From: an uncultured Gemmatimonadaceae bacterium | Lineage (GTDB): Bacteria; Gemmatimonadota; Gemmatimonadetes; Gemmatimonadales; Gemmatimonadaceae | Reading direction: 5' to 3' | DNA: 64,000 nucleotides | Assembly (NCBI GenBank): GCA_963790305.1 | Contig: CAWBOC010000009.1 | Coordinates: forward strand, 96,001-160,000 | Part shown: positions 4,684 through 63,921 of the stretch, one piece after another | Numbering within the stretch: the first letter of the stretch is position 1 | Layout of the letters: each line of letters begins with the position of its first letter | The notes under the pieces: model-generated | The model's input: only the letters and a program-made list of their open reading frames with translations | Told to the model about the DNA's origin: nothing | Databases searched by the model: none | Program-made: the position numbers and the translations under genes

Positions 4684-4772
4684 AGGTGATCGAGGTGGGC
4701 GAGGATGTCGAAGGTGATCGAGGCGCTGACGCTCACCTGGATCACCTCGATATCCTCGACTACCTCGACACC
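4684..4772. repeat. Palindromic tandem-repeat element, 9-bp unit (AGGTGATCG / CGATCACCT family)
   Basis: 4-5 imperfect 9-mers, short loop, 4 inverted 9-mers; starts right after the Leu-DH stop. Confidence 0.85.
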
Positions 4773-5848
4773 CTATTTGTTAGGCCACTGGGGCCATGTT
4801 TTCACTAGCGATCCGACCGCCTGAACACGCCGCTCAGCGAGTCGATCGGCAGCGTGGTACGACGGGATCGCGTCCTGCTTCGCGATCTCGAACACGGAAA
4901 GCACCGTCTCGTAGATCTCGTCGGCCTTGCGCAGCGAGCGCGCCGAGCTCCCACCCGGCAATCTCGCTGTACACGTTGATGACTCCACCCGCATTCGCCA
5001 CGTAGTCGGGAGCGTAGAGGATTTCCGCGCTCCTCGAGCGCATCCCCGTGCCGGTCCTCGAGAAGCTGGTTGTTCGCGGCGCCGGCCACGATCTCCACCC
5101 GAAGCTGCGGCATCGTCTTGTCGTTGATGATGCCGCCCAACGCGCACGGGCGCAAAGATGTCGGCTTCGACGCAATAGATGTCGTCGGGCTTGACCGGCC
5201 GTCGCACCGAAGTCGGTAACGACGCGCTTGACCCGTTCGGCGTCGATGTCGGTGACGATGAGCTTCGCGCCGGCGGTGTTGCAGCTCCTGCGCAAGGTAG
5301 TAGCCGACGTGCCCACACCCTGAATCGCGACGGCGCGGTCGCTGAGGTCGTCGTCGTCCCAGCGCCATTTCGCGGACGCCTGAATCGCGCGGAACACGCC
5401 GCGCGCAGTCACGGGCGACGGATCGCCGGAGCGATCGGTGAGCCCGGTGACATAGTCGGTCTCCATGTGGACGAAGTCCATGTCGGCGGTGCTGGTGCCG
5501 ACATCCTCGGCCGTGACGTACCGGCCGCCGAGACTCTCGACGAATCGGCCGTGCGCGCGAAAGAGCATCTCTCGGCCGAGCGTCTTGTTGTCGCCGATGA
5601 TGACCGCTTTGCCGCCCGCCGAGGTTGAGTCCGGCGACGGCATTCTTGTAGGTCATTCCGCGCGACAGTCGCAGCGCATCGACGATGGCTTCCTCGTCGC
5701 TCGCGTACTTCCAGAAGCGCGTACCGCCGAGCGCGGGCCCGAGCGTGGTGCTGTGAATCGCGATCACTCCGCGGTAGCCGGCGGAATCATCATGGCAGAG
5801 CACGACCTGCTCGTGCCCCATGGAGGCGATCGTGTCGAAGAGCTTCAC
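4773..5848 (-). CDS. ldh: Leucine dehydrogenase (Glu/Leu/Phe/Val dehydrogenase), several frameshifts
   Basis: [46 protein letters not shown] distributed over three frames. Confidence 0.9.
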
Positions 5849-5872
5849 GTGCCGGAGTGGTTAGGTGAACGT

Positions 5873-5957
5873 CGAATGCGGAATTGCGGAATGCGGAGTT
5901 GAAACTCGCGCACAGAATCGTGTTTTCAGTCGTTCCGCATGCCGTATTCCGCATTCG
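5873..5957. repeat. Palindromic tandem-repeat element, 7-bp unit GAATGCG
   Basis: CGAATGCGGAATTGCGGAATGCGG ... TTCCGCATGCCGTATTCCGCATTCG. Confidence 0.8.
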
Positions 5958-5961
5958 GCCT

Positions 5962-7129
5962 TTATTTCGCATACAACTGTCTCGCAATGACAATCCGCTG
6001 GATCTCGGATGTCCCTTCATAGATCTCCGTCACCTTCGCATCGCGGAAGAGGCGCTCGACCGGATACTCCTTCATGTACCCGTAGCCGCCGAAGATCTGG
6101 ATCGCTTCCGTCGTCACCCACATGGCGGTTTCGCTCGCGAACAGCTTGCTCATCGAGCTGAACTGGGTGATCGGCTCGCCACGGTCCTTCGCCGACGCGG
6201 CGGAGTAGAGCAACGCTCGGGCCGCGGTAATGCGCGTCGCCATGTTCGCGAGCTTGAACTGGATCGCCTCGAACTCCTTGATCGGATGTCCGAACTGGCG
6301 ACGCTCCGCCGCGTAGCGCACCGAGTACTCGAGCGCCGCGCGCGCGATGCCGACTGCCTGCGCCGCCACTCCCAGTCGGCCGTTGTCCAGCGACTGCATC
6401 GCGTAGACGAACCCCTTCCCCTCGCTGGCCGAGCAGCTGGTCCGCCGGGACGCGCATGTCGATCGAAGCTGAGCTGGACCGTCGGCGACGCGCGCAGCCC
6501 GAGCTTGTCTCTCCTTCTTGCCGACGCGAAATCCCTCGAGGTCGGGGGTGACGATGAACGCGCTGATGCCGCGAGCGCCGCGGCGCTCTCCCGGGCCGGT
6601 CGGTTCGCGCCATGGCGAGGATGACGCCGGCCTGGTTGCCGCTCGTGACCCACGCCTTCGTCCCGTTGAGGATCCAGGCATCTCCGTCGCGGACCGCCTG
6701 CGTCGTCATCGCTGCCGCATCCGATCCCGCTTCCGGCTCCGAGAGAGCGAAGGCACCGAGCCACTCGCCACGCGCCATGGGCGGCAGAACCGCTGCGCGC
6801 TGCGCCTCGGAGCCGTAGCGCAGGATCATCTGCGTCGGCAGCGAGTTGTGGACACTCATCGCCACGGCGACCGAGGCATCCACGGCCGCGATCTCCTCGA
6901 GCGCTACCAGATACGTCACCGTGTCGAAGCCCCAAGCCCGTCGTACTGCTCCGGCACCATCATGCCGAGGAACCCGAGCTCGGCGAGCTTGCCGATGATG
7001 GCGGGATCCATCGCCGCCTCGCGATCCCACTTCGTCGGCGTGCGGCGCGATCTCCGAACGCGCGAAGTCCCGCGCGAGCTGCTGAATCTCCTTCTGCTGT
7101 TCAGTGAGAGGGATGAGCGCCCAGGACAT
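5962..7129 (-). CDS. Acyl-CoA dehydrogenase (frameshifted)
   Basis: GAFALSEPEAGSDA, LNGTKAWVT, GRLGVAAQAVG, RQFGHPI, GGYGYMKEYPVER, IYEGTSEIQR. Confidence 0.92.
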
Positions 7130-7138
7130 CGCGGTGGC

Positions 7139-7989
7139 TCAGTAGGTGTAGAAACCGCGACCGGACTTCCGACCGAGCCAGCCGGCGGCGACGTACTTCT
7201 TCAGCAGCGGACAGGCCCTGTACTTGGGATCGCCCAGTCCGTCCTGCAAGACCTCGAGAATCGCGACGCAGGTATCGAGTCCGATCAGATCGGCGAGGGC
7301 GAGCGGCCCCATCGGATGGTTCATCCCGAGCGTCATCACCTTGTCGATCGCCTCGGGCGTTCCTACACCCTCCATCACGCAGTAGGCCGCCTCGTTGATC
7401 ATCGGCATGAGGACGCGGTTCGAGACGAAGCCGGGCGAGTCGTTCACCTCCACCGCGATTTTCCCCAGCTGCTTGCGCGTACGCCATCACGGTCGCCGTC
7501 GTCTCGTCGCTGGTCGCCAGACCGCGAATGATCTCGACCAGCCGCATGACCGGCACGGGATTCATGAAGTGCATGCCGATCACGCGGTCCGGCCGCTTCG
7601 TGCGGCCGGCAATCTCGGTGATCGAGATCGAGCTGGTGTTCGTGGCGAGAATGGTCTCCGGGGGCGCGATCGCGTCGAGATCGGCGAACAGCTTGAACTT
7701 GAGCTCGGCATTCTCGCTCGCGGCCTCGACGACGAGCGTCGCTTCGCGTCGCGACACTGAGATCCTCGCCCACCGCAGAGGCGCTGCAGTGCCCCGTCCC
7801 GCTTCTCGGCGTCGAGCTGCCCCTTTTCCAGAAACCGCGCGAGGCTCTTCTCGATCGAGCCACGCGCCCGCGCCACAGCGTCGCCCGATACATCGACCAT
7901 CGTCACTGGGATGCTCCGCCATGGCAAATACCTGAGCAATGCCGGCTTCCCATCTGCCCCGCCCCAATGACGACGACGCGTTCCTTCAT
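7139..7989 (-). CDS. hbd: 3-hydroxybutyryl-CoA dehydrogenase (frameshifted)
   Basis: [52 protein letters not shown]. Confidence 0.9.
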
Positions 7990-8877: not shown

Positions 8878-9422
8878 GCGGTCGCGCGCGGTGTCTTCGG
8901 TGAGAGCGCGGCGGCGGCGAGCACTTTCAGTAGATCGAGCGGGACGAACGGCGTTGCTCCCAGCGCAATCGCCCGTTCCGCGCTTCCGGTAAGCGCGAGC
9001 AGCTGGAGAAATCCGCCGACGTGAATCACCGCGATGCCCGCGGCGGCCGCGGCAACACGAAAGGCGAAATCACGACGCTTCGTGACGACGAGCCCGGCAA
9101 CGAACGCGGCCACCGGGTACGCCCAGAGGTAGCCTCCGGTGGGACCGAGAAGGCGTGCGAAGCCGGGCGCCCCCATCGGCGCGAACACGGGGAGGCCCGC
9201 CATCCCTGCGGCGAGGTAGAGCGCCATGCTCGTGGCTCCAGCGATGGGCCCGAGCCACAACCCGGCGAGCACCACGACCAGCGGCTGCAGCGTCATCGGA
9301 ACCGGTGTGCCCGGTATCGGGATCGCCACCTGCGACGCCGCCGCCAGGGCGACAGCGAACCCAGCCACGCCAAGGGCCGTCGTGCGCGTGTCGCGCAGGA
9401 GGAACGTCGTGCTCGTGCCCAT
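8874..9422 (-). CDS. bioY: Biotin transporter BioY
   Basis: PVPMTLQ, GLPVFA, GPTGGYL motifs. Confidence 0.9.
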   Translation of the reverse strand: MGTSTTFLLRDTRTTALGVAGFAVALAAASQVAIPIPGTPVPMTLQPLVVVLAGLWLGPIAGATSMALYLAAGMAGLPVFAPMGAPGFARLLGPTGGYLWAYPVAAFVAGLVVTKRRDFAFRVAAAAAGIAVIHVGGFLQLLALTGSAERAIALGATPFVPLDLLKVLAAAALSPKTPRATA

Positions 9423-10634
9423 TAGTTCATGCGCTCCACGCTGAGGGCGACCGCGTCTCCGCCACCGAGGCAGAGCGTGGCGAGCCCGGTTTCCTCGTCT
9501 CGATCACGCATCGCGTACAACAGCGTCGTGAGCACGCGCGCGCCGCTCGCTCCGATTGGATGGCCAAGCGCGATGGCACCGCCATGCACGTTGACACGGT
9601 CCCAATCCCATCCGAGCGCCGTCCCATCGGCGATCGCTTGTACGGCAAAGGCTTCGTTCGCCTCGATGAGATCGTAATCCCCGATCTTCGTTCCGGCGCG
9701 GCTCATGAGGCGCTTCACGGCCTCGATCGGCGCGAAGAAGAGATCGCGCGGCTCCACCGCACCGGTCGCATACGCGTTGATGCGTGCCAACATCGTGAGG
9801 CCATGCGCGCGCGCATACTCTTCCGATGTCACCACCAGCGCCGAGGCGCCGTCGTTCATCGGCAATGCATTGCCGGCGGTCACCGTGAGCTCCTCGGGAC
9901 GCGCGCCGTTGCTCGCGAACGCCGGCCGCAGCTTGCCGAGCGAATCCAGGCTGGTGTCGCGCCGCGGACCTTCGTCGGTGTCCACGGCCGTGGGACCTTT
10001 CTTCCCGGGAATCTGCACCGGGACGATCTCTTCACGGAATTTTCCCGCGTCGATCGCCGCAACCGCCTTTTCGTGCGAGCGGACCGCAAACTCATCCTGC
10101 ATCTGTCCGGGAGACGCTCGCCTTCTTTGCCGTATACTCGGCGTGCCCCCCCATGTGGACGTCGCAGAAGGAGCACCAGAGTCCGTCGCGAATGACGCCG
10201 TCGACCAGCGTTTGATCGCCGAATTTGACGCCCGAGCGCAACCCATAGAGGTAATGAGGCGCATTGGACATCGACTCCTGTCCGCCCGCCACGATCACCT
10301 GCGCGTCGCCCGCCTTGATCGCCTGCGCCGCCAGCATCACCGCCTTGAGCCCGGACCCGCACACCTTGTTGATCGTGAGCGCAGACACCGTGGCGGGAAG
10401 GCCGCTGCGAATCGCGGCCTGACGTGCAGGGGCCTGGCCCACACCACCCTGTACCACGTTCCCCATGATCACTTCCTGCACGTCCTCGGCCCCAATGCGC
10501 GCGCGCTTGACGGCCTCGCGTATGGCGGTGGCGCCGAGGTCGGGGGCGCTGACCGATGCCAGCGCGCCGAGGTAGCGGCCAATGGGCGTGCGGGTGGCAG
10601 AGATGATTACCGGAGTGCGGCTGGGATCAGGCAT
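9422..10634 (-). CDS. Acetyl-CoA C-acetyltransferase (thiolase), frameshift near 10105
   Basis: [32 protein letters not shown]. Confidence 0.93.
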
Positions 10635-10683
10635 GGAAAAAAATCTAAACGGCTGCGAGTTCGAGATGTCAGGGCGACGGCAG

Positions 10684-10826
10684 GAGCACCTTCCGAAGAC
10701 GTCAGAGGTCAGACATCAGATGTCAGTTGTCAGATAACCTACGGGGAGCCGGCTTGCGGCTCCCCGTAATGGTTTTCTGAACACTGAGACCTGACGTCTG
10801 GCCCCTGACGTCGTCGGAAGTTGCTC
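10684..10826. repeat. Palindromic tandem-repeat element, 7-bp TCAGAnn units, central hairpin ACGGGGAGCCG/CGGCTCCCCGT
   Basis: GTCAGAG GTCAGAC ATCAGAT GTCAGTT GTCAGA arm, inverted arm TCTGAAC ACTGAGA CCTGACG TCTGGCC CCTGAC; outer GAGCA..TTCCGA / TCGGAA..TGCTC. Confidence 0.85.
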
Positions 10827-10828
10827 TT

Positions 10829-12980
10829 TCACTCCGGCATTGAGACAGCCGGTACTCCCGCCAATCCGAGTTGATCTATCATGAACGCGTACCTGAACGC
10901 GAGCTCTCTGAGGTTGTCGTAGCGGCCCGACGCGCCGCCGTGGCCGGCGCCCATGTTCGTCTTCAGCACGAGGAGGTTGCCGTCCGTCTTGTTGGCGCGG
11001 ATCTTCGCGACCCATTTCGCCGGCTCCCAATACGCCACGCGCGGATCGTTGAGCCCCGTCGTCACCAGCATCGACGGATACGTCTTGCCGACGTTGTCGT
11101 ATGGCGAGTACGACTTCATGTAGGTGTAGTGCTCCTTGACGTGCGGATCGCCCCACTGCTGCCACTCGCCGGCGGTGAGCGGGATCGACGCATCCATCAT
11201 GGTGTTGATGACGTCGACGAACGGCACATCGGCAACGACGACCTTGAACAGGTCGGGACGCATCGTCACTACGGCACCCATCAACAGTCCGCCGGCGCTG
11301 CCGCCGCGAATCGCCAGCTTCTCCTTCGAGGTGTAGCCCTCACGAATCGAGATGCTCCGCCGACGCGATGAAGTCGGTGAAGGTGTTCCGCTTGTTGAGC
11401 ATCTTGCCCTGGTCGTACCACCAGCGTCCCATCTCCTGCCCGCCGCGGATGTGCGCGATCGCATACACGAAGCCGCGATCGAGGAGCGACAGGTTGTTCG
11501 ACGAGAACGTCGGATCGGTGCTCGAGCCGTACGAGCCGTACGAGTAGAGCAGCATCGGACGCGAGCCGTCCTTCACCAGCGGCTTGCGATACACCAGCGA
11601 GACCGGAACCATCACGCCGTCGGAGGCCTTCGCCCACGTCCGCTCGGTGGCATACTGGGATGGATCGTATCCACCCAGGACATCCTGCCGCTTCTTCAGC
11701 TCACGCTGCTTGGTCGCCATCTCGTAGTCGTAGACCGTCGACGGGGTGACGAGCGACGTGTACACGAATCGGAGCGTGCGCGTGTCGAACTCCGGGTTCC
11801 CGCCCCACCGCACGGTGTAGACCGGCTCATCCATCGCGATGTGGTGCTCCGCGCCACTGGCGAAGTCGCGGATGCGGAAGCGCGTAAGGGCCTTATCGCG
11901 TTCCATCAGGACGAGATGATTCCGGAACACGTCGAAGTCGGCGAGGAGCACCGAGTCGCGGTGTGCGACGACCGTCGTCCAGTTCTCAGGCTTCGGATCG
12001 CGGTCCGGCGCGCGCACCAGCTTGAAGTTCGTCGCGTTGTCGTTCGTGCGGATGTAGAAGTGCGTGCCGTGGTGCTCGACCGAGTACTCCACGTTCGGAC
12101 GTCCCGCCGAGATGACCTTCGGAGCCTCCCCGGGACGGTACGCATCGATGTAATACCATGTCGACTGCGTGAAGCTCTCATCGCCGATGAGCAGGAAACG
12201 ATCGTCCTTCGTCTTGGTGATGCCGAGCCCGAACAGCACGTCGGGCTGATGATGGATCATCACATCGCTCGACGTCGGCATGCCGAGCGTGTGGCGGAAG
12301 ATGCGATCGGGGCGCTGGGCAGAATCGGTGCGCGTGTAGAACAGCGTGCGATTGTCGTTCGCCCACTGGATGCCGAAGTGCACATCATGAATCTGATCGG
12401 GGAGCATCGTGTTCCGCGCGATGTTCTTCACGACGAGGGTGAAGTGCTCCGAGCCGCTCGTGTCGACGAGGAAGGCGAACAGCCGGTGATCAGGGCTCAC
12501 CTGCGTTCCACCGAGGCGGAAGTAGCCCTTCCCTGCCGCCATCACGTTCTCATCGAGCAGCACTTCCTCGGGAGCGTCGAGCGATCCCTTCTTGCGCGCG
12601 TAAATCTGATATTGCTTCCCCTCTTCGGTGCGCGTGTAATAGAAGAAGGAATCACGACGCACGGGCACGGTGAGATCGGTCTGCTTGATGCGCCCGAGCA
12701 TCTCCTTGTAGAGCTGCTCCTGCAGCGGCGCGAGATGCTTCGTCATCTGATCCGTGTAGGCGTTCTCCGCCTCGAGATACTTGATGACGTCCGGATTCTT
12801 TCGATCGCGCAGCCAGAAGTAGTTGTCGACGAGGATGTCGCCATGAATCGTGTCCACCTTGGCGACCGGCTTCGCGAGAGGTGGCGCCGGCGTCTGCGCG
12901 ACAGTGGTCGCGAGCGGCGACAGCAGCGCGAGCGTCCACACGAGCGTGCGCGCGCGGATCGAGAACGAGGACCTACTCAT
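10829..12980 (-). CDS. ptrB: S9A oligopeptidase B (prolyl oligopeptidase family) with signal peptide, frameshift near 11345
   Basis: DNYFWLRD, YGSYG, IRGGQEMGR, GGSAGG catalytic Ser, NDPRV, GAGHGG; RBS AGGAGG before ATG 12980. Confidence 0.92.
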
Positions 12981-13018
12981 GAAACCTCCTGAAAGACTCT
13001 TGGACGTGCGAAAAACGA

Positions 13019-13218
13019 GGAACCGCAGATAGCCGCAGATAGCCGCAACAACAACTGCAACCGCAGTTGGCCACGGCTGAACGCGCATAACAGCCACGGA
13101 TTGTTCCGAGTCCGGACTAGCCCTCCTCACGTGAAACATCCTGCTTTTCCGTGAAAACGGTGGCTGGCGTTTTACGCCGTTGCAGTTCTTGCGGCCTTCT
13201 GCGGCCATCTGCGGTTCC
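13019..13218. repeat. Palindromic tandem-repeat element, 10-bp AGCCGCAGAT units, with ~115-nt interior containing a nested CCACGG-type inverted pair
   Basis: GGAACCGCAGAT AGCCGCAGAT AGCCGCAA..AACTGCAAC / GTTGCAGTT C TTGCGGCC TTCTGCGGCC ATCTGCGGTTCC. Confidence 0.85.
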
Positions 13219-13224
13219 ACGGAC

Positions 13225-15471: not shown

Positions 15472-16260
15472 ATGGCTCCATTTCGGTATCGGGACGAGGG
15501 CGAGTCTCTCGGCGGCGCTCTCGCGAAGATCGGGGTTGGTGCCGCCGCCGGTTTCGTCGTCGGCGTCATCATGGCGCAGAAGGTCGGCGGCATCTCGGGA
15601 CTCTCGTCCAGGCTTCGTGACAAGATCGCAGGCCTCGGCGGCGACGACGTCGATCGCTACCGCGTATCGCGCGGCCTCACCGCTGACGACGGCCTCGACA
15701 CCATGCTCGAGGAGCGCGTTCTCGAGGCCTTCCGCAATGATCCGATCCTGAGCGAGCGCGGCATCGATATCGGGTCGGTCGGCGAGGGAACGATCGAGCT
15801 GACGGGCTGGGTCGAGACACCGGACGAATCCGAGCGAGCGACGACGATCACGCGCGGAGTTCCCGGCATTGAGACCGTCGTGAATCGCATCATCGTTGGG
15901 GAGGAGGAAGACATGCTCGATGAGAATGCGCGGCGCCACGCCGAAGGAGACCCCGCACTGAACGAAGGGCGCTGGGAAGGTCAGCGGGTCGGAACGGGCC
16001 GCCGGCGCCAGGGGAATTCGGAGGAGCTCGACCGTCACGCGGATCCCAAGCCCGAGCTCGAGAACCGTTGGCTCGCCGAGCAGCACGCGCTCGAACAGGC
16101 GGCGGACGACACGCCGGATACGGGCGTGCGCCGCAGCACGACTCGCAAGGCGCGCCGCGGCGGCCGCGCTGACGGAAGCCCGGTCGCACCGACGGGCGTC
16201 CCGAAGGCCGACCACGTAGCGGATCCGCTCGGAGTCGAGGAGCCGCCGAGGGCGGACTAG
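15472..16260 (+). CDS. BON domain membrane-anchored protein
   Basis: N-terminal TM; LEERVLEAFRNDPIL...IELTGWV...GVPGIETVVNRI BON fold; acidic disordered tail. Confidence 0.85.
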   Translation: MAPFRYRDEGESLGGALAKIGVGAAAGFVVGVIMAQKVGGISGLSSRLRDKIAGLGGDDVDRYRVSRGLTADDGLDTMLEERVLEAFRNDPILSERGIDIGSVGEGTIELTGWVETPDESERATTITRGVPGIETVVNRIIVGEEEDMLDENARRHAEGDPALNEGRWEGQRVGTGRRRQGNSEELDRHADPKPELENRWLAEQHALEQAADDTPDTGVRRSTTRKARRGGRADGSPVAPTGVPKADHVADPLGVEEPPRAD

Positions 16261-16416
16261 GAGCTAGGGGTCAGGAGTCAGGAGTCAGGGATGGAAAGGC
16301 AAACGGCCGCGCAGCGCGCGGCCGTTTGCTCATCCGATGAGTGCCGCACGCGCGAAGCGCGGCGGCACCTTTCCTCCCCTGACCCCTGACTCCTGACCCC
16401 TGACCCCTTACTCCAG
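16255..16416. repeat. Palindromic tandem-repeat element, 7-bp GG(A/G)GTCA units, enclosing a perfect four-way junction
   Basis: GGGGTCA GGAGTCA GGAGTCA arm / TGACCCC TGACTCC TGACCCC arm; three internal hairpins 16300-16367. Confidence 0.9.
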
Positions 16417-28595: not shown

Positions 28596-28710
28596 GAACG
28601 GCAAAGAGAACAGCAATACAGAATACGGAAACGACCACGGGGAGCCATGACTGGCTCCCCGTCGGTTTTGTCTGAATTCTGAATTCTGCAGGCTGTCATC
28701 TTTGCCGTTC
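28596..28710. repeat. Palindromic element with CAGAATA/TCTGAAT 7-mers and central hairpin ACGGGGAGCCA/TGGCTCCCCGT between convergent genes (likely bidirectional terminator)
   Basis: Outer perfect IR GAACGGCAAAGA/TCTTTGCCGTTC; core hairpin 28637-28662. Confidence 0.8.
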
Positions 28711-28713
28711 GCG

Positions 28714-32350: not shown

Positions 32351-32361
32351 AGGATGCCTAT

Positions 32362-32443
32362 GTGGTCGAGGTCGTCGAGGATGTCGAGGTCATCGAGGTG
32401 AAGTCGCCTCGATCACCTGGACGACCTCGACGACCTCGACCGC
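32362..32443. repeat. Palindromic tandem-repeat element, 9-bp GTCGTCGAG units
   Basis: GTGGTCGAG GTCGTCGAG GATGTCGAG GTCATCGAG GTG-aagt-CGC CTCGATCAC CTGGACGAC CTCGACGAC CTCGACCGC. Confidence 0.9.
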
Positions 32444-32452
32444 CTCTGCACT

Positions 32453-33310: not shown

Positions 33311-33402
33311 AAGGCGCTAGAGGCGCTAGAGGCGCTAAAGGCGCCAAAGGCGCTGAACGCCGACCCAGCGCCTCTAGCGCCTCTAGCGCCCTTAGCGCCC
33401 TT
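33311..33402. repeat. Palindromic tandem-repeat element, 9-bp AGGCGCTAG units
   Basis: 5 x AGGCGC(T/C)(A/G)(A/G), 10-nt loop, 4 x AGCGCC(T/C)(C/T)T. Confidence 0.9.
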
Positions 33403-33442
33403 CCCGCCCTTCACTATCTTTCCCCGACCCTCAACCCGACCC

Positions 33443-38225: not shown

Positions 38226-38322
38226 GCATCACCACAGAGGCACAGAGGGCACAGAGAAACGGCGAACTGCCGACTGAGCAGTTCGCCGTTTCTCTGTGCC
38301 CTCTGTGCCTCTGTGGTGATGC
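38226..38322. repeat. Perfect 45-bp inverted repeat with CACAGAG(G) tandem units between convergent genes
   Basis: GCATCACCACAGAGGCACAGAGGGCACAGAGAAACGGCGAACTGC-cgactga-exact reverse complement. Confidence 0.95.
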
Positions 38323-41481: not shown

Positions 41482-41496
41482 TTGCGACGTGATCTC

Positions 41497-41537
41497 AGAG
41501 GGACGAGAGGAAGCACCTCTCGTCCCTCTTCCCTCAT
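41497..41537. repeat. 14-bp hairpin of AGAGGGA/GAGAGG-type units after tRNA-Ser(GCT)
   Basis: AGAGGGACGAGAGG-aagca-CCTCTCGTCCCTCT then an extra TCCCTC unit. Confidence 0.7.
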
Positions 41538-41549
41538 TTTCTCGTCTGA

Positions 41550-45845: not shown

Positions 45846-46534
45846 TATTGGTCGGCGCGGACAGGGTTGGTGACGCGACTGACACCGACGATCTCGACGT
45901 CGACGACGTCTCCGGGGACCAACGGACCGACTCCGGCTGGCGTTCCGGTTGCGATCACGTCGCCCGGAAGCAGCGTCATGATCCCTGAGATGTACGCGAT
46001 GAGCCGGGAGGGACCGAACACCATGTCTCTCGCCGTCGCGCGCTGCCGCTCGACGCCGTTGACACGGGTGACCAGCTCGAGCTCGTCCAGCCTCTGTGGT
46101 GCGGCGCCCTCGGCGCCGAGCGGGCAAAACGTATCGAACCCTTTTGCTCGCGTCCATTGACCGTCGGTCTTCTGGAGATCGCGCGCCGTGACATCGTTGA
46201 CGGCGACGACTCCTCGGATGCACTTCGCGGCGTCACGCTCGTCCACCCGATAGGCGCGCGTCGCGATCACGATTCCGATCTCGCCCTCGTACTCGACGCG
46301 CTGGGACGCGCGAGGAAGGACGATGGCTTCTCCATCCCCGATCACGCTCGACGGCGGCTTCATGAAGATCAGCGGCGCCTTGGGAACTTCGTTCCCGAGC
46401 TCCTTGGCGTGGTCGGCGTAGTTTCGGCCGACGCAAATGATCTTGGACGGGATGAGGCATTTGGGGTCAGGAGTCAGGGACCAGGGGTCAGGATTCGAGG
46501 TCTCAGGCGCGCGCGCGCAGGTCTGCCTACTCAC
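45845..46534 (-). CDS. Fumarylacetoacetate hydrolase family protein
   Basis: SKIICVGRNY..H..E, FMKP, YEGE, NDVTARD, WTRAKGFDTF, GDVIATGTP; start uncertain (GTG 46534, or ATG 46460 with an indel). Confidence 0.92.
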   Translation of the reverse strand: MSRQTCARAPETSNPDPWSLTPDPKCLIPSKIICVGRNYADHAKELGNEVPKAPLIFMKPPSSVIGDGEAIVLPRASQRVEYEGEIGIVIATRAYRVDERDAAKCIRGVVAVNDVTARDLQKTDGQWTRAKGFDTFCPLGAEGAAPQRLDELELVTRVNGVERQRATARDMVFGPSRLIAYISGIMTLLPGDVIATGTPAGVGPLVPGDVVDVEIVGVSRVTNPVRADQ

Positions 46535-46544
46535 TCCTGACCCT
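46463..46544. repeat. GG(A/G)GTCA 7-mer element (asymmetric) at the dinG/FAH junction
   Basis: GGGGTCA GGAGTCA GGGACCA GGGGTCA arm; short inverted arm TCACTCC TGACCCT. Confidence 0.75.
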
Positions 46545-49055
46545 CAGAAAAAAAATCCCGTAGCTCGACGAGAATGCTCGTCCAGGCACCGACCACCCGT
46601 TTCGCCGGCGGCAGCCCCGCCAGCAACCCACGCCCGTACGACTTGGTGATCACCCGTGGATCGCAGAGCACCACCGCGCCCTGATCGGTCGCCGTTCGGA
46701 TGAGGCGTCCAAATCCCTGCTTGAGCCGCAGCGCCGCGTTCGGAAGCATGTACTCCCGGAACGAGTCACCGCCGCGCTTCTCGATCTCTTCACAGTGCGC
46801 GGCCGTCAGCGGCTCCGTCGGAACGCGAAAGGGGAGCTTCGCGAGCACCAGCCCGCGCAGCGCGCGGCCTGGAACGTCAATGCCTTCCCAGAAGGATGCG
46901 GTGCCGAGGAGCACCGCGCTTCCGGATTCGCGGAAGCGACGCAGCAGCGCGTCCCTCCCATCATCGCCGTGCACGAGCAGCGGCCACCGCCGCTCGATCC
47001 CGCGCGCCCGCACTTCGGTGGCGGCGAGCCGCACATCGCGGTGACTCGTGAACAGCACGAAGATGCCGCCATCGCTCGCGTCGGCGACGTCCAGCGCGAT
47101 GCGGACGACCGCCTGCAAATGCGCGTGCGCATCGGCATTCGGCGCGGGGATGTCCGTGGGAATCGCGAGGATCGCCTGACGAGGGTACTGGAACGGCGAG
47201 TCGAAGACGCCCGTCACCGGCGCGAGTGCGGGATCGTCGAGTCCAAGGCGCGTGGCGAGAAACCGGAAACCGTTGTCATCGGCGAGCGTCGCGCTGGTGA
47301 GCACCGCCGTGTCGACGCGGCGGAACAGATCCTCGCGCAGGATCGGAGCGAGATCGAGCGGGACCACCGTGGCCGCGACGTTGGCCTCGCGGCCCTTGAG
47401 CTCGACCCATCGCACCGACGGCTCCGCCTCTTTCGGCGGATCCAGCGTGCGACGAAGCCCGTCGCCTAACGCTTCCAGCCGGCGCGTCACGCCGCGCATT
47501 TCCGCGAGCAGCGACGCAACGGCATCACGGCGCGCCGAATCCGCCTCGAGGCGCTCGCGCACGAGGCGCAGCCCATCCTCGAGGAGCGCGATCTCCCCGA
47601 GAGCGTCGGCGAGCGCGGTCCGAAGCCCGGCCGCCCACACCGGGTGAGCGGCGAAGTCCTCGGTGAGCCGCATGACCGGTTGGCCGTGCTGCTTGAGCAG
47701 TATCTCGAGAATGTCGAAGACGCGACCGCCCTTCTCGCGCGCCCCATAGACCGCGGGCGCGAGCCGCGCGTTCACGAGGTCGAGGCTCGCGCGTGCTGAG
47801 CAGGTCGCGCTGAGACGACAGCCGCATCGTGAGCGCCGTCAGAAGGCCCTTTCCCCTTCGATCGAGCCGATTGAGCAGCCGGACCAGCCCTCGTCGCGTC
47901 ACCGTCGTTCCGAGGTGCGACTGCGCCGCATCCTCCACGTGATGCGCTTCGTCGATCACCAGACGTCGATATGCCGGCAGGACGGCCGCGTCACTCCAGT
48001 TCTGCTGCGCCCGCCGCACCGCGAGGTCCGACATGAGGAGATGGTGGTTCACGACGATGACGTCTGCCTGTGCCGCCGCCCGGCGCGCGCGAAAGAGAAA
48101 GCATTTGTCGAAATGCTCGCACTTCAGTCGGCCGCAGAGGTCGGGCTCGGCCGCGACCTCGTCCCACACCTCTGGCCGCGGCGGGCGTGGCGAGATCGGC
48201 GAGCGATCCATCGGTCGTGCGCTCCGCCCATGCCCGCACCTCCTCCAGCTCGCGGGCGAGGGGTGCATCGAACAGCCCGCCGGCGGCGTTCGCGTTCTCG
48301 AGGCGCCACAGACAGAGATAGTTCCTCCACCCCTTGAGGAGGACGTAGCGCACGGGCTGGTCATCGAGTGCGCCCTCGAGGAATGGCAGATCCTTGCCGA
48401 CCAGCTGCTCCTGGAGGTTGATCGTGTTCGTCGAAACGACGGTGCGCTCGCCATTGGCCGCCGCCCAGCGGAGCGCCGGGAGCAGGTAGCCTAACGACTT
48501 GCCGACGCCGGTGCCCGCCTCGAGCAATCCGACCCCCCCGTCGTTGTAGAGCGCGGTGACCGCGGCCGCCATGTCCCGCTGCGTCGGGCGGTCTTCATAT
48601 TGGCTCAGCCGCTGCGCCACCGGCCCGCCGGGCCCGAGTGCCGCGGTCACGACGTCCGGATCGAGCCGCGTCGTATCCGCTGCACGCGGCACCTCCACCA
48701 CGACGTACAGCGATCGCGCATCGTTGTCGATGATGCCGAAGCCAACGCCGCCGTCGTGCATCCGCGCCGCAACCTCGAGGTCGGCGTCCGATGGCTCGAG
48801 CTCCCCCGTCGGATGGTTATGCAGCAGCATCTCCCCCCGCTGCGCGACCCCCGGAAGCGCGATGACGCTGCGCACGTCTCCGCGCGACACGACCCGTGCC
48901 GCGCACACGCAGCCGTCATCGTCGAGCTGCGCGACGAAACACACTTCCCTCCCCCCTGCGAGTCGTATTGCGGCGCGCATCGCGGCGCCCGCCGCCTTCC
49001 CGATACGGGAAGGTGAATGCGGATTGCGGATTGCGGATTGCGGTCGCTCCGACAC
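46531..49055 (-). CDS. dinG: DinG/YoaA-family helicase with N-terminal JAB/MPN (RadC-like) domain (frameshifts near 48180 and 47790)
   Basis: HNHPTG..PSDAD JAB motif; EAGTGVGKS, LKGWRNYLC, DEAHH, TSATL, SFWEGID, LKQGFGRLIR. Confidence 0.88.
49015..49042. repeat. Single arm of GA(A/T)TGCG 7-mer tandem repeat inside the dinG 5' end
   Basis: GAATGCG GATTGCG GATTGCG GATTGCG. Confidence 0.8.
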
Positions 49056-49066
49056 GACCGCGCGGC

Positions 49067-49138
49067 GTGCGAAGTCGTCGAGTTGTCACGCGCACGCCTC
49101 GAGCACCTCGACGACCTCGACGCACCTCGATCACCTCA
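49067..49138. repeat. 9-mer CCTCGACGA-family palindromic element (left arm degenerate)
   Basis: GTGCGAAGTCGTCGAG ... CCTCGAGCA CCTCGACGA CCTCGACGCA CCTCGATCA CCTCA. Confidence 0.8.
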
Positions 49139-56934: not shown

Positions 56935-57020
56935 AAGGCGCTGAGAGCGCTAGGGGCGCCAAGGGCGCTAAGGGCATAGCGGTTCAGCGCCCCTAGCGCC
57001 CTTAGCGCCCCTAGCGCCCT
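56935..57020. repeat. Palindromic tandem-repeat element, 9-bp AGGGCGCTA units
   Basis: AAGGCGCTG AGAGCGCTA GGGGCGCCA AGGGCGCTA / CAGCGCCCC TAGCGCCCT TAGCGCCCC TAGCGCCCT; same family as 33311. Confidence 0.9.
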
Positions 57021-57025
57021 GCCGC

Positions 57026-57850: not shown

Positions 57851-57881
57851 CGCCCGGTGAACTACCGAGGGTTCCAGCGCG

Positions 57882-58316: not shown

Positions 58317-58365
58317 AGGGCTGTCTCCGGCGTGCTTGTGAGCGAGAACCTACTGGGGGGCTGAC

Positions 58366-59106
58366 ATGCGAGCAACCCACCTACGACTGTACATCAACGT
58401 CGACCACGTCGCGACGCTGCGACAAGCGCGACGCACCGATGAGCCAGATCCCGTGATCGCGGCGGAGCTGTGCGAGCGCGCTGGCGCCGACGGCATCACC
58501 GCGCACCTGCGCGAGGATCGGCGACACATCCAGGATGACGACGTACGGCGGCTCGCCGCCACAGTCCGGACCGTGCTCAATCTCGAGATGGCGCTCACCG
58601 AGGAGATGCTCGGCATCGCGCTGTCGTTGCAACCCTACCAGGTGACGTTCGTTCCGGAGCGGCGCGAGGAGATCACGACCGAGGGCGGCCTCGACGTCGG
58701 TCGCGATCCGAGGGCGCTCCGGGATGGCATCACCCGCCTGAAACGTGCGGGCATCCGTAGCAGTCTGTTCATCGCCCCCGACCCCGAGGCGGTGGCTCGG
58801 TCACGCGAGCTCGGGGCAGATGCGATCGAGCTGCACACGGGTCGGTACGCGCACGCGTCGCATGAGACACGAACGATCGACGCGTTGCGGCAAGCTGCAC
58901 AACTGGGAGCTGAAGCGGGCCTGGCCGTTCATGCGGGACACGGGCTGACTGTGCGGAACGTCGGCCTGGTGGCGGCGGTGCCGGAGATCGAAGAGCTGAA
59001 CATCGGTCACTCGATCGTCAGCCGCGCAGTGTTCGTCGGCATCGAGAAAGCGGTGCAGGAAATGCGAGAAGTCATGCGCTCGGCAAGGCAGGCGTCAGAT
59101 CGTTAG
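58366..59106 (+). CDS. pdxJ: Pyridoxine 5'-phosphate synthase
   Basis: [48 protein letters not shown]. Confidence 0.97.
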
Positions 59107-59171
59107 AACTCCAGCGCTCCGGCTCCGGATGGTCAGAAGTATGTTGAGATCTTCGAACCCATGAGAGGAAC

Positions 59172-60671
59172 ATGACGTCGCCTGTTGGCCTCCTCGATTT
59201 CTTCATTCTCGAGGCGAACGACTCGATCGATCGGCTCGACGGGGCCATCAGCGGGGCCGCCACCCGCCCCCCCGATGTCGACCTGTTACTGCGCCACGCG
59301 CGGACGCTGCGGGGCAGCTCCACCATGGCACGACAGAATGGGATCGCCGAAGTCGCGGGCGGGATCGAGCGCATTGCTCGTGCGCTGCGCGATGGTGAAG
59401 CGACATGGAGCCAGTCGCTGCACGCGGCGCTCGTGGCCGCCGTGGATGACTTGAAGCTGCTGCTCCGCTCGGTGCGAAACTGGAGCACAGCCGATGAACG
59501 CCGCGCCCAATCGCGCACCGCGGAGCTGGCGCGGCTCGCGCCCGAGGTGCAGCGTCGCACGCCGACGCCCAGCTCCACCGGCGGGAGCGCGTTCCTCGTC
59601 GCCGAAACCGGCGACATCGCCGATGCCCTCGAACAGGTGGTTCGCCGACCCGGCGATCGCGAGGCGCTGGACGCCGCGCTCCGTCATGTCCGTACGCTGC
59701 GCGGGGTCGCATCCGTCCGGGATGTCCCGCCACTGCCGGAGGTCGTCGACGCCATCGAGCGTGCCGCCAAGCCGCTCGAGATTGGGACGCTCACCTCCCC
59801 CACCGTCAGGCAGCTCGCGCTGCTCACGGCGGCTGCGATGCTATTGCGACGCATCTCGACGGAGCTGGGTGGAGGCCGCAGGCCCGATTCGAACTCGCCC
59901 GAGGTACGCCAGTTCGCCGCGGCGGCGTCCGCGCTGGCCGAGGAGGCGCCACAGGCCGACCACATCGTCCCGATCGCGGCACTCTTCCATGGCGACACTG
60001 GTCCACACCTGGTGTCGACATCGCCGAACCCACCGACGACACCTCCGGAGCGCTTCCGGATGGAGGTGGTCAGTCAGGCGGAGCACCTTCGCCGGTTGGT
60101 TGCCGATGCGCGCTCGTCGAATGACCCGGCATCCCGCGAGCGCCTTGGACGCGAGCTCCGGACCGCGCTGCGTGCGCTCGAGGCAGCCGCGGTGAGCTTC
60201 GACGAGCGGGGCGTGGCGGGAATCGCACGAGACGGGGCCGCCACCGCCGCATCGCTCGACCCGCGCGCGCTCGAATCCCTCGATCGCCTCGCGACGGTGC
60301 TCGCCGATCCTCGGCTTCAGTCGTCCGATCTCACGCGCGAAATCGAGGCACTCGGGCGGCCGGCAGCTCGCGCGCCGTCGGCTCCCGCCCCAGCCCGCGG
60401 TCGCACCATGACTCCGACCGGCCGGGAGCTGAAGGATTTTCTCGACCAGGGCATCGAAACGCTCGACCGACTGCAGGACAAGCCGCTCCGCGAGCCGACG
60501 CCGCTGCCTGACGAGAAGATCGTTCCCATTCAGGAGCTTCTCTACCGGGGGCGCGCGGCTGTCGAGCGGGCGCGAACGCTGCGCGATGAGCTGCGCAGGC
60601 ACGGCAGCTCCCCACCGCAGGACGTCATCGACGAGTTGTACGATTTGCTGGATCTCGCGCTGGTCGAGTGA
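59172..60671 (+). CDS. Protein with tandem Hpt-like helical domains
   Basis: FFILEA..IDRL...RTLRGSS and FLVAE...RTLRGVA repeats resembling CheA P1; RBS GAGGA. Confidence 0.65.
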   Translation: MTSPVGLLDFFILEANDSIDRLDGAISGAATRPPDVDLLLRHARTLRGSSTMARQNGIAEVAGGIERIARALRDGEATWSQSLHAALVAAVDDLKLLLRSVRNWSTADERRAQSRTAELARLAPEVQRRTPTPSSTGGSAFLVAETGDIADALEQVVRRPGDREALDAALRHVRTLRGVASVRDVPPLPEVVDAIERAAKPLEIGTLTSPTVRQLALLTAAAMLLRRISTELGGGRRPDSNSPEVRQFAAAASALAEEAPQADHIVPIAALFHGDTGPHLVSTSPNPPTTPPERFRMEVVSQAEHLRRLVADARSSNDPASRERLGRELRTALRALEAAAVSFDERGVAGIARDGAATAASLDPRALESLDRLATVLADPRLQSSDLTREIEALGRPAARAPSAPAPARGRTMTPTGRELKDFLDQGIETLDRLQDKPLREPTPLPDEKIVPIQELLYRGRAAVERARTLRDELRRHGSSPPQDVIDELYDLLDLALVE

Positions 60672-60691
60672 ACCGCGCAGACTGATACGCA

Positions 60692-62602: not shown

Positions 62603-62615
62603 CTTTCAAGGCTGC

Positions 62616-62686
62616 TGCCCCCTCGTCCAATGGCAGGACATCGGACTTTGGATCCGAGAATGGTGGTTCGAATCCACCGGGGGCAA
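62616..62686 (+). tRNA. tRNA-Gln (anticodon TTG)
   Basis: TGCCCCC/GGGGGCA acceptor, TCGGA-CT TTG GA-TCCGA, GGTTCGAATCC; classic ispE-tRNAGln-prs synteny. Confidence 0.95.
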
Positions 62687-62688
62687 TT

Positions 62689-62808
62689 GGGGGTCAGGAG
62701 TCAGGGGTCAGGGATCAGGGGGTGTCAGGGTGAAGGTTCGAGGAGAACGGCGCGTGCAATTCCTGAAACCTCTCCCCTGACACCCCTGACCCCTGACTCC
62801 TGACCCCC
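62689..62808. repeat. Palindromic tandem-repeat element, 7-bp GG(A/G)GTCA units, directly after tRNA-Gln
   Basis: GGGGTCA GGAGTCA GGGGTCA GGGATCA .. / ..TGACACCCC TGACCCC TGACTCC TGACCCCC. Confidence 0.9.
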
Positions 62809-62815
62809 TTTATGA

Positions 62816-62844
62816 TTGACCTCGAGATCGTAATCGCCTATGCT
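62816..62844 (+). promoter_or_regulatory. Sigma70-like promoter of prs
   Basis: TTGACC-N17-TATGCT. Confidence 0.6.
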
Positions 62845-62859
62845 TCAAGGCTGTAGCCA

Positions 62860-63816
62860 ATGGACGAGCTCCTAGTCCCGCGTCGCGGGTTCAAGCTCCT
62901 CGCGGGGACCGCCAACCGGGTGCTCGCCGAGGAAATTGGCCGGTGTCTCGGGGCCGAGCTGGCGAAGGTCACCGTCAGTCGGTTCGCCGACGGCGAGTGC
63001 TTCGTTCGCATCGACGAGAACGTCCGCGGCCACGATGTGTTCATCGTTCAGCCGACCAATCCACCGGCCGAGAACATGATGGAGCTGCTGCTCCTCATTG
63101 ACGCGGCACGGCGGGCGTCGGCGGCGCGGATCACCTGCGTGATGCCGTACTATGGCTACTCACGGCAGGACCGGAAGGACCAGCCGCGCGTCGCGATCGG
63201 AGCCAAGCTCGTGGCGAACATGATCGTGACGGCTGGGGCAGACCGGGTGCTGGGGATCGATTTCCATCAGCATCAGCTGCAGGGATTCTTCGACATTCCC
63301 GTCGATCATCTCTACGCAGCTCCGGTGTTCGTGTCGCACTACCGCAGGAAGCAGCTGCGAGAGCTGGCGGTCGTCGCGCCGGACGTCGGCTCGGCGAAGA
63401 TGGCGCGAGGGTTCGCGAAACGCTTGAACGGCACCTTCGCGATCATCGACAAGCGGCGTCCAGCGCCGAACGTGGCGGAGGTGCTGAACGTCGTCGGTGA
63501 TGTCGAGGGACGGGACTGTCTCATCCCCGATGACATGATCGATACCGCGGGGACGGTGACCGAGGCAGCGCGAGTGCTGAAGGGGTTGGGTGCCGAAGAT
63601 ATCTACGTGTGCGCGACGCACGCGCTGTTGTCAGGACCGGCGGTGGAACGCATCCGCGACGCGCCGATCGCCGAGATCGCGGTGACCGACAGCGTCGCGA
63701 TTCCCGACGATCGCCGGCAGCTGAAGCAGCTGAAGGTGCTGTCCGTCGGGGAGCTGCTGGCGAAGGCGATTCGGTACACGCACTTCGATCAGTCGGTTAG
63801 TTCACTCTTTGAATAG
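62860..63816 (+). CDS. prs: Ribose-phosphate pyrophosphokinase
   Basis: FADGE, PYYGYSRQDRK, APDVGS, DKRR, DDMIDTAGT. Confidence 0.97.
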   Translation: MDELLVPRRGFKLLAGTANRVLAEEIGRCLGAELAKVTVSRFADGECFVRIDENVRGHDVFIVQPTNPPAENMMELLLLIDAARRASAARITCVMPYYGYSRQDRKDQPRVAIGAKLVANMIVTAGADRVLGIDFHQHQLQGFFDIPVDHLYAAPVFVSHYRRKQLRELAVVAPDVGSAKMARGFAKRLNGTFAIIDKRRPAPNVAEVLNVVGDVEGRDCLIPDDMIDTAGTVTEAARVLKGLGAEDIYVCATHALLSGPAVERIRDAPIAEIAVTDSVAIPDDRRQLKQLKVLSVGELLAKAIRYTHFDQSVSSLFE

Positions 63817-63825
63817 CCAACGGCA

Positions 63826-63921
63826 CAGATGTCAGATGTCAGAATACAGAGCTCAGAAATCAGAATGCGGCGGGCGGGCGATGTCTGACATCTGATTCCT
63901 GTATTCTGACCTCTGACATCT
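63826..63921. repeat. Palindromic tandem-repeat element, 7-bp CAGAnnn units
   Basis: CAGATGT CAGATGT CAGAATA CAGAGCT CAGAAAT CAGAATG / TCTGACA TCTGATT CCTGTAT TCTGACC TCTGACA. Confidence 0.88.

What the first reader, a model, noticed from the sequence alone, without database searches (positions are those of the whole stretch)
4684..63921. Dense set of palindromic elements built from tandem 7-10 bp units at gene junctions (about 16 copies, at least 7 sequence families)
Seen: many intergenic gaps hold an 80-200 bp inverted repeat whose arms are arrays of short imperfect units. Families: 7-mer GG(A/G)GTCA (16255, 46463, 62689), 7-mer CAGAnnn (10684, 28596, 63826), 7-mer GA(A/T)TGCG (5873, 49015), 9-mer GTCGTCGAG (4684, 32362, 49067), 9-mer AGGCGCTAG (33311, 56935), CACAGAG(G) (38226), 10-mer AGCCGCAGAT (13019) and AGAGGGA (41497). 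The families differ in sequence but share one architecture. They often start within a few bases of a stop codon or tRNA end and occur between co-directional, convergent and divergent genes. Most lack a U-tract, so they are not ordinary terminators. They are also not classical GTAG/CGTC REPs or CRISPR. Inference: they are footprints of a dispersal or insertion system, i.e. empty cassette ends. From memory (unverified here), small four-helix-bundle (TIGR02436) and GxxExxY (TIGR04256) genes are often bracketed by this kind of 7- and 9-mer arm; these copies would be the cargo-less form.
Basis: partly seen in the sequence, partly recalled or inferred. Interest (0 to 1): 0.8.

Follow-up and report, generated by a model that had tools for sequence, protein, structure and literature searches.

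The report
One small gene per hairpin-repeat family
This bacterium's genome carries hundreds of DNA hairpins built from short tandem words just behind its genes, sorted into ten word families that each match one small gene wrapped in the same words, and because a family is common mostly in relatives that hold its gene, these little-studied proteins likely spread or maintain the hairpins although they are not known transposases.

Summary
Twelve intact hairpins lie in the window. 46463 is decayed, 49015/49067 is one hybrid gap, and 41497 is a single-copy hairpin of no family. Genome-wide there are 891 arrays (15 in a shuffle) and 308 inward-facing pairs, hugging stop codons. All 6 four-helix-bundle (TIGR02436) and all 4 GxxExxY genes carry arms, each of a different family. 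In nine genomes of the genus the arm word follows the protein clade, and the proteins are under purifying selection. For four families, every genome holding the gene has more arrays per Mb than any genome where it was not found; a fifth test had two exceptions. Orthologous junctions occur gene-filled, gene-free, empty, or occupied by an unrelated family. I found no target-site duplication, U-tract bias, RAYT or reverse transcriptase. Best reading (0.55): a REPIN-RAYT-like system run by non-transposase proteins; the chemistry is untested. The parts are published separately (Xanthomonas heptamer pairs, Coxiella 23S IVS); I did not find the gene-family coupling in print. The scan noted this design before, here and in other genomes.

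The parts
4684..4775 (.). F4 (GTnnTCGAG 9-mer) hairpin between an amino-acid (ELFV) dehydrogenase gene and rpiB
   Evidence: relatives carry GGGCCAR (G001, G005), F1 (G004, G008) or nothing (G003)
5868..5955 (.). F3 (GA(A/T)TGCG 7-mer) hairpin after an acyl-CoA dehydrogenase gene
   Evidence: GGGCCAR in G001 and G005, CTGCGWA in G004 and G008, no hairpin in G003
10684..10826 (.). F2 (CAGAnnn 7-mer) hairpin with inner GGGGAGCC stem, between an S9 peptidase and a thiolase gene
   Evidence: F2 in 4 of 4 relatives with data
13016..13221 (.). F7 (CCGCAGATnn 10-mer) element after thrS; GxxExxY-linked family
16259..16414 (.). F1 (GG(A/G)GTCA 7-mer) hairpin, cloverleaf subtype, before valS
   Evidence: F1 in 4 of 5 relatives, F3-like in G003
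28596..28712 (.). F2 hairpin between convergent genes
   Evidence: F1 in G005, extra gene plus F2 in G001
32355..32450 (.). F4 hairpin
   Evidence: F4 or the related GGGTSCTCA word in 4 of 4 relatives
33311..33411 (.). F5 (AGGCGCTAG 9-mer) hairpin between divergent genes
   Evidence: F5 in G005 and G008, F4-like in G001, remnant in G003
38226..38322 (.). F6 (CACAGAGG(G)) hairpin, arms 100% complementary over 45 nt; GxxExxY-linked family
   Evidence: F6 in G008, F4-like in G005
41490..41540 (+). Plain hairpin after tRNA-Ser, probably not a member; replaced by F1 elements in G004 and G005
46460..46550 (.). Decayed F1 element (left arm plus stub)
   Evidence: z -0.2; intact F1-like in G005, F2 in G004 and G008, absent in G001
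49015..49137 (.). Hybrid gap: F3 left arm and F4 right arm, no hairpin
   Evidence: also hybrid in 4 of 4 relatives with data
56935..57022 (.).
   Evidence: F5 in G005, plain hairpin in G001, G003, G004, G008
62689..62808 (.). F1 hairpin between the tRNA-Gln 3' end and the promoter-like site of prs
   Evidence: four different families among 7 same-genus relatives, none in G003
62816..62844 (+). sigma-70-like site (TTGACC-17-TATGCT) of prs directly behind the element
   Evidence: consensus match only; a TTGAC word is kept in all 8 same-genus relatives
63822..63925 (.). The F2 four-helix-bundle cassette lies about 3.3 kb past the window end (G000:C9:163272-163780)
   Evidence: full F2 in 6 of 7 same-genus relatives with data, shortened in G003

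Best explanation
These hairpins are ten repeat populations, each matched to one small arm-flanked gene (a four-helix-bundle or a GxxExxY protein) whose product likely recognises its own tandem word on single-stranded or hairpin DNA and so would spread or maintain gene-free copies at gene ends, much as a RAYT does for REPINs. Shown: the one-to-one match, the word following the protein clade, purifying selection on the proteins, abundance tracking the gene, and filled, gene-free, empty and swapped states at one junction. Inferred: the protein acts in trans. Copies land or survive at a limited set of tolerant junctions just behind stop codons and often overwrite an earlier hairpin by cleavage and repair without a target duplication. 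Some gene-free copies arise by loss of the gene from a full cassette and are then copied on their own. Untested: binding, cleavage and the integration chemistry. The four-helix-bundle protein has no known active site, so it would need host repair enzymes. An oligomer binding several units (arms have a median of 3.4-5.4 units in its families) is my guess.
For: One-to-one: 6 of 6 TIGR02436 and 4 of 4 TIGR04256 genes carry arms, ten different words. 70 of 71 four-helix-bundle genes and 17 of 24 GxxExxY genes from this genome and relatives have inverted flanks above the 95th percentile of mismatched pairs. Words group by protein clade. dN/dS is 0.06-0.17 in 10 clades. The GxxExxY residues E, D and E-x-K are invariant in 10 aligned sequences, family PDDEXK_3. 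Pattern counts, gene found versus not found among 9 genomes: GGGCCAR 78-221 vs 0-1; F5 52-285 vs 0-18; GGGTSCTCA 110-268 vs 0-19; F1 68-272 vs 0-61. The four patterns split the species tree differently. Prediction test at the sucB-lpdA-like junction: G000 and G006 share a 79% identical protein with GAATGCG arms and have 148 and 54 such arrays; G005 and G008 share an 82% identical protein with GAACGAG arms and have 176 and 208, with 0-7 of the other word, against the species tree. F5 cassettes are gene-filled in one genome and gene-free in another at the same base. A relative has an element at 35 of 658 junction comparisons where G000 has none, but a different-family element at 36 of 74 where G000 has one and the family is not shared; 14 of the 36 are strictly unrelated named families. 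Wobble bias is weak in elements (104 G-T vs 81 A-C, p 0.11) and clear in ordinary post-stop hairpins (20 vs 7, p 0.019).
Against: No activity is shown and no precise empty site was available (relatives are about 78-86% identical). Exceptions: G001 has 61 F1 and 42 GAATGCG matches and G004 has 87 GAACGAG matches with no matching gene found (96% and 90% complete). Several low-copy words in G000 have no gene. Nine related genomes give only about five to seven independent changes. Labels were read from the arms by eye, and three of the ten patterns were written after seeing the gene flanks. Three of the six four-helix-bundle frames in G000 are interrupted; the assembly splits 26 of 118 test genes, so this may be error, but that is not shown. 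Some junctions keep one family across the genus (10684, 63826), and the wobble trend is in the RNA direction. Several genes in other genera have paired but non-periodic flanks, and only 39 of 76 distant loci pass a strict test. Correlation could run the other way: a protein retained because its binding sites are abundant.
Confidence: 0.55

Rival explanations
1. RNA-level system: the hairpins are mRNA processing or stability elements (long stems cut by RNase III, as in 23S rRNA intervening sequences) bound by the cognate protein. The host needs a hairpin at these junctions, and gene conversion homogenises them to whichever word the resident protein binds.
For: Same junctions are re-occupied by different families, and a plain hairpin is replaced at 56935. 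Stop-codon and convergent-junction bias. The Coxiella IVS has heptamer repeats, an S23p gene and an RNase III-cut stem (PMC4990558 passages). PF05635 resembles Avd, the accessory protein of DGR retrohoming (PMC10053308 passage; bAvd E 1.8e-4, below cut-off).
Against: No clear G-U bias on the transcribed strand, unlike ordinary hairpins. 64 sites lie between divergent genes. Junctions are empty in some relatives. It does not explain how an unrelated word arrives at a junction.
Confidence: 0.25
2. Passive footprints: full cassettes were inserted many times by an outside enzyme or by recombination, and each gene-free hairpin is what remains after the gene was deleted. The protein is cargo.
For: F5 filled and gene-free forms at the same base. 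F5 genes at different sites are old paralogues, about 75% identical. Cassettes have been swapped at one junction.
Against: Gene-free sub-families share cores absent from the cassette and match each other at up to 91% over most of a 118-nt element. Cargo would not need to match the word clade by clade. No RAYT, reverse transcriptase or target duplication was found.
Confidence: 0.13
3. Ordinary terminators or slippage-born simple repeats, with the genes sitting among them by chance.
For: Position after stop codons and very stable folds.
Against: No U-tract bias. 10 of 10 genes are arm-flanked with ten different words. Abundance follows the gene. Families are swapped at junctions.
Confidence: 0.04

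Closest known systems
REPIN-RAYT systems (Bertels and Rainey 2011, PMC3116915, abstract seen; bioRxiv 10.1101/2021.07.10.451892, abstract seen)
   Same: Hairpin-forming inverted doublets in extragenic space, several families per genome, each next to its own mostly non-jumping gene, conservation depending on that gene.
   Different: No Y1/HUH transposase found in this genome. Arms are tandem 7-10-nt words, not small palindromic REPs. The partners are PF05635 and PF13366 proteins. Some cassettes do change place or are swapped.
Xanthomonas GGGAATC and Nostoc GGGGA(C/T)T heptamer repeats (Rehm et al. 2015, PMC4692102; abstract, passages and part 1 of 6 of supplement 2 seen)
   Same: Arms of about four heptamers, 70-75 inward-facing pairs per genome, close to stop codons. 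Their table row 15 puts a four-unit arm over the start of XCC0516, which is PDB 2GSC, the best solved relative of the F1 protein.
   Different: Read there as G-quadruplex sequences; 'helix' does not occur in the main text and no downstream partner arm is listed for row 15. One family per genome was studied, against ten here, and most words here lack G-tracts.
ORF-bearing 23S rRNA intervening sequences (Coxiella IVS with S23p, PMC4990558, passages seen)
   Same: PF05635 gene inside a terminal stem, with tandem GACAGAT heptamers before the start codon, resembling the F2 word.
   Different: Here the cassettes lie between protein genes, with many gene-free copies. RNase III excision was not testable.
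NTS-ssnA-NTS (Ssn GIY-YIG nucleases, PMC11893778, passages seen)
   Same: Small single-domain nuclease gene flanked by its own hairpin repeat that is abundant genome-wide; homologues assayed on their own repeats with partial cross-specificity.
   Different: Different fold (GIY-YIG versus PD-(D/E)xK and four-helix bundle), non-periodic repeats, and activity shown there but not here.
Classical MITEs of DDE transposases (recalled)
   Same: Short non-coding elements with inverted ends; a longer gene-bearing form exists.
   Different: No target-site duplication, ragged ends, and the enclosed gene is not a transposase.

Membership tests
REPIN-RAYT | Inverted doublets forming hairpins in extragenic space | tested here: met
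   308 inward-facing pairs versus 1 outward; folds
REPIN-RAYT | Associated RAYT (Y1/HUH) transposase | tested here: not met
   PF01797 not found in G000, 94% complete
REPIN-RAYT | Family persistence depends on the cognate single-copy gene | tested here: met
   correlation only, with exceptions in G001 and G004
REPIN-RAYT | Excision or transposition intermediates | not testable with these tools
   no run holds half of the stretch
23S rRNA IVS with S23p | PF05635 gene inside terminal inverted repeats | tested here: met
23S rRNA IVS with S23p | Located within an rRNA gene | tested here: not met
   the flanks of the six cassettes read as protein-coding DNA; Rfam finds only tRNAs in the window
23S rRNA IVS with S23p | Excised from RNA by RNase III | not testable with these tools
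   no RNA holder listed
DDE-type MITE | Target-site duplication | tested here: not met
   280 elements, direct-repeat lengths equal to shuffled flanks
DDE-type MITE | Autonomous partner with the same ends encodes a transposase | tested here: not met
   enclosed genes are PF05635 and PF13366; two IS3-like elements sit inside F10 loops but have their own ends
Intrinsic terminator | U-tract on the transcribed strand | tested here: not met
   25 of 168 sense versus 18 of 168 antisense
NTS/SRM-Ssn | Repeat-flanked gene is a GIY-YIG nuclease | tested here: not met
   flanked genes are PF05635 and PF13366; I did not search the genome for GIY-YIG genes separately
NTS/SRM-Ssn | Site-specific ssDNA cleavage near the cognate repeat | not testable with these tools
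   needs purified protein
Diversity-generating retroelement / retro-mobility | Reverse transcriptase in the genome | tested here: not met
   PF00078 not found
Xanthomonas-type inverted heptamer pairs | Inward-facing arms of about four heptamers just behind stop codons | tested here: met
   compared with the table; the words differ

The most novel reading that the evidence does not exclude
Four-helix-bundle (IVP/Avd-like) and GxxExxY proteins are two very large families of programmable word-readers that run a transposase-free class of genomic replicators. Each reads a 7-10-nt tandem word, writes gene-free hairpins at gene ends by overwriting existing hairpins, and competes with sister systems for the same junctions, so that swapping one 500-bp cassette rewrites a hundred or more intergenic sites. 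This would explain the heptamer repeats of Xanthomonas and cyanobacteria and the origin of ORF-bearing 23S rRNA intervening sequences.
Probability: 0.35. Interest if true: 0.9.

Novelty: new variant of a known kind. Interest (0 to 1): 0.72.

Why it matters
It gives two widespread protein families of unknown function a specific, testable substrate: ten natural protein-word pairs in one genome and more in relatives, with built-in negative controls. It ties together three separate published observations: abundant bacterial heptamer repeats of unknown origin, the crystallised but unexplained XCC0516, and ORF-bearing 23S intervening sequences. If the proteins move or maintain the repeats, REPIN-like replicators do not need a transposase, and the GxxExxY members may be new small sequence-specific nucleases.

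Tried and rejected
Target-site duplications: none above control. Other cargo between arms: long-gap pairs held housekeeping genes between two separate hairpins, two IS3-like insertions, and a cupin-like gene between F4 arms that I did not follow up. DUF559, RAYT and reverse transcriptase: not found. GxxExxY nuclease as the obligatory partner of four-helix-bundle families: unlikely, since 8 of 21 genomes have the four-helix-bundle gene and no GxxExxY hit and 2 show the reverse (draft genomes). Target = one copy of the word: true at one empty site (G000:C7:15.39 kb reads one F5 unit in relatives without the element) but not at the other empty sites seen, so not accepted. Rfam: only tRNAs. Sequencing runs: no RNA holder listed, best DNA share 0.07; no reads were laid, so strain-level empty sites and RNA ends remain open. 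A structure prediction had not finished after five collections and was not used. Beggiatoaceae TAACTGA paper (PMC4679880, passages): direct repeats, no helix-bundle mention. Literature searches that did not return the gene-family coupling. The library lacks most subscription papers, searches were too broad to be informative, and bioRxiv supplements were closed. Dropped rows: 3 of 74 four-helix-bundle and 7 of 31 GxxExxY loci with short flanks, 4 of 80 loci, junctions over 700 bp or beside genes under 200 bp. The F6 exact-word counts (44, 23, 12 in G000, G004, G008; 0-1 in the seven others) fit but mark a single clade, so I give them no weight.


Full report
Setting. The window is G000:C9:96001-160000 of a 4.31-Mb, 66% GC assembly in 13 contigs, 94% complete. 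The closest named homologues of one of its proteins (91% and 89%) come from Gemmatimonadaceae genomes, so I infer that family. The assembly is rich in indels: 26 of 118 test orthologues are split over frames.

Twelve of 14 folded sites beat all 200 shuffles. Three entries need correction: 46463 is decayed, 49015 and 49067 are one hybrid gap (F3 left arm, F4 right arm), and 41497 is a single-copy plain hairpin after tRNA-Ser. Genome-wide, tandem arrays scoring 40 or more peak at periods 7 (335) and 9 (438). Eleven patterns find 891 arrays against 15 in a shuffle, with 308 inward-facing pairs and 1 outward-facing pair; 44 further listed pairs, a few of them duplicates, are variants or minor words. 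The 581 sites lie a median 12-13 nt from stop codons and fill 30% of convergent, 10% of co-directional and 12% of divergent junctions (on my own gene calls). Stops abutting F1 arms are TAG in 29 of 39 cases against 1006 of 3924 overall, so the arm often overlaps or supplies the stop.

One gene per family. The genome has 6 TIGR02436 and 4 TIGR04256 genes. Every one carries arms, each of a different word. The four-helix-bundle genes are enclosed by GG(A/G)GTCA, GGGGAGT, GTCGTCGAG, CAGAnnn, AGGCGCTAG and GAATGCG arms. The GxxExxY genes go with CACAGAGG(G), CGCAGAGG, CCGCAGATGG and ACGCGGATT; three of these have a full hairpin downstream, and one is cut by a contig end. All seven families with intact copies in the window thus have a gene elsewhere, the F2 gene only 3.3 kb beyond the window. 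The proteins are PF05635 (closest solved relatives 2GSC and 2RLD, five chains per entry) and PF13366 with an invariant E, D, E-x-K set. That 2GSC is a pentameric ring is recalled, not checked. Median units per arm are 3.4-5.4 in the six four-helix-bundle families and 2.5-3.9 in the four GxxExxY families.

Relatives. TIGR02436 occurs in 18 of 21 and TIGR04256 in 12 of 21 genomes searched. I examined 74 four-helix-bundle and 31 GxxExxY loci, then 20 more. Inverted flanks exceed the control in 70 of 71 and 17 of 24 loci with enough flank. On the protein tree the words fall into clades (labels read by eye), and dN/dS is 0.06-0.17 in ten clades. Among 76 more distant loci from several phyla, 39 pass a strict test whose control is inflated by related words.

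Abundance follows the gene. Over the nine genomes of the genus, exact-pattern counts with versus without a gene found are: GGGCCAR 213, 96, 166, 221, 78 versus 0, 0, 1, 0; F5 179, 285, 234, 52, 234 versus 0, 18, 0, 1; GGGTSCTCA 268, 198, 143, 110 versus 14, 0, 13, 0, 19; F1 190, 178, 68, 129, 272 versus 61, 49, 0, 7. Per Mb, each gene-positive genome exceeds each gene-negative one within a family, narrowly for F1. The patterns cut the species tree (G003,((G001,G006),((G002,G007),(G005,(G000,(G004,G008)))))) in different places, but this is only a handful of independent changes, and four of the nine genomes are under 90% complete. I then made a prediction at one junction (dihydrolipoamide acyltransferase-dehydrogenase by sequence, G000:C10:203 kb), where all cassettes are syntenic. 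G000 and G006 have GAATGCG arms and 79% identical proteins; G005 and G008 have GAACGAG arms and 82% identical proteins; other pairs are 48-62% identical. Genome-wide counts match: GAATGCG 148 and 54 versus 2 and 0; GAACGAG 176 and 208 versus 5 and 7. Two genomes disagree: G001 has 42 GAATGCG matches and G004 has 87 GAACGAG matches without a gene so armed.

Junction states. At tRNA-Gln-prs, seven same-genus relatives carry four different families and G003 none. At 4684, 5873, 28596, 33311, 38226 and 46463 at least one relative has an unrelated family. At 56935 four of five have a plain hairpin. At 10684 and 63826 the family is stable. Across 772 junction comparisons in about 1.5 Mb from four relatives (detector false positives 1 of 400), a relative has an element in 35 of 658 cases where G000 has none (8-9% for roomy gaps). 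Where G000 has one, the relative has the same family in 40, a different call in 36 (14 strictly unrelated) and none in 38. The F5 gene sits at four junctions in five genomes. At two of them G000 has a gene-free F5 hairpin starting at the same base, and several other genomes have no element. Those genes are old paralogues, about 75% identical, which fits insertion of full cassettes followed by gene loss. Other clades stay at one locus (F2 in 7 of 7, GGGCCAR in 5 of 5). Where relatives have a filled cassette, G000 often has a gene-free element of another family. Gene-free copies are also replicated as such: F1 splits into 43 of one core type, 19 cloverleaf and 9 other, and the cloverleaf core is not in the cassette.

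What it is not. There is no target-site duplication and no U-tract bias. No Y1 transposase, reverse transcriptase or DUF559 gene was found, and there is no Rfam match beyond tRNAs. Isolated mismatches on the transcribed strand are 104 G-T to 81 A-C (p 0.11), while ordinary post-stop hairpins give 20 to 7 (p 0.019). This leans towards a DNA-level element but does not exclude an RNA role.

Mechanism. Shown: matching, co-variation, selection and turnover. Inferred: each protein recognises its word in trans and promotes copying or upkeep of hairpins, which settle at tolerant sites behind stop codons and often overwrite an earlier hairpin. The GxxExxY protein could cut by itself. The four-helix-bundle protein has no known catalytic site and occurs without GxxExxY genes in 8 of 21 genomes, so it would act as a binding adaptor with host repair. 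I give this 0.55, an RNA-processing system 0.25, passive footprints 0.13, and terminators or slippage 0.04.

Comparison with print. It works like REPIN-RAYT (abstracts) and NTS-ssnA (passages) but fails their defining enzyme tests. The gene-free form is published for Xanthomonas (passages). That paper's supplementary table places a GGGAATC arm over the start of XCC0516, and its main text does not contain the word 'helix'. The gene-filled form is published as the Coxiella 23S IVS, with heptamers and RNase III cleavage (passages). Ten searches did not return the coupling of protein clade to word family; subscription papers are largely outside the library. Earlier notes of this scan describe the same design in this and other genomes; they are unchecked notes and are not counted as support.

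Verdict. Real, widespread, and a new variant of the repeat-plus-partner-gene kind with unexpected partner proteins. The one-to-one coupling and the junction swapping make the function of two large uncharacterised families directly testable. Interest 0.72.

Noticed in passing
G000:C12:2462-3889 and G000:C7:4662-6090: Two IS3-like elements are inserted in the loop of F10 hairpins at what looks like the same inner position, so the hairpins may serve as IS targets.
   Followed up: partly
G000:C9:846736-847311: A cupin-like open frame lies between inward-facing F4 arms; either a third kind of cargo or a gene between two half elements.
   Followed up: no
window 16290-16370 and 18 other F1 copies: Cloverleaf core GGAAAGG-hairpin-CTCATCnGATGAG-hairpin-CCTTTCC. 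The same core occurs between GGGCCAR arms in G001 and G005, so cores and arms recombine or drift separately.
   Followed up: partly
window 4773-5848, 5962-7129, 9422-10634, 10829-12980: Housekeeping genes split over frames; the assembly splits 26 of 118 test genes, likely indel errors.
   Followed up: partly
window 59100-59175: No element in G000, but G004 and G008 carry F4-like and G005 an F2 element at this junction.
   Followed up: partly
G000:C7:15385-15480 in G004 and G008 (L209, L210); G000:C5:122945-123032: An 11-mer variant of the F5 word (GCGCTGGAAAA/TAG) forms its own small family with no gene found.
   Followed up: no
G000:C10:112690, 146907, 297744 and others: A few F3 pairs fall deep inside called genes; some may be in-frame insertions, others gene-call errors.
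   Followed up: no
L027, L068, L069, L074 (G009), L026 (G010): A clade of four-helix-bundle genes in other genera mostly has long paired flanks without a periodic word.
   Followed up: no
PMC4692102 supplement 2, rows 26-28, 35-36, 40: Xanthomonas heptamer pairs are also listed inside genes such as purL and mraW.
   Followed up: no
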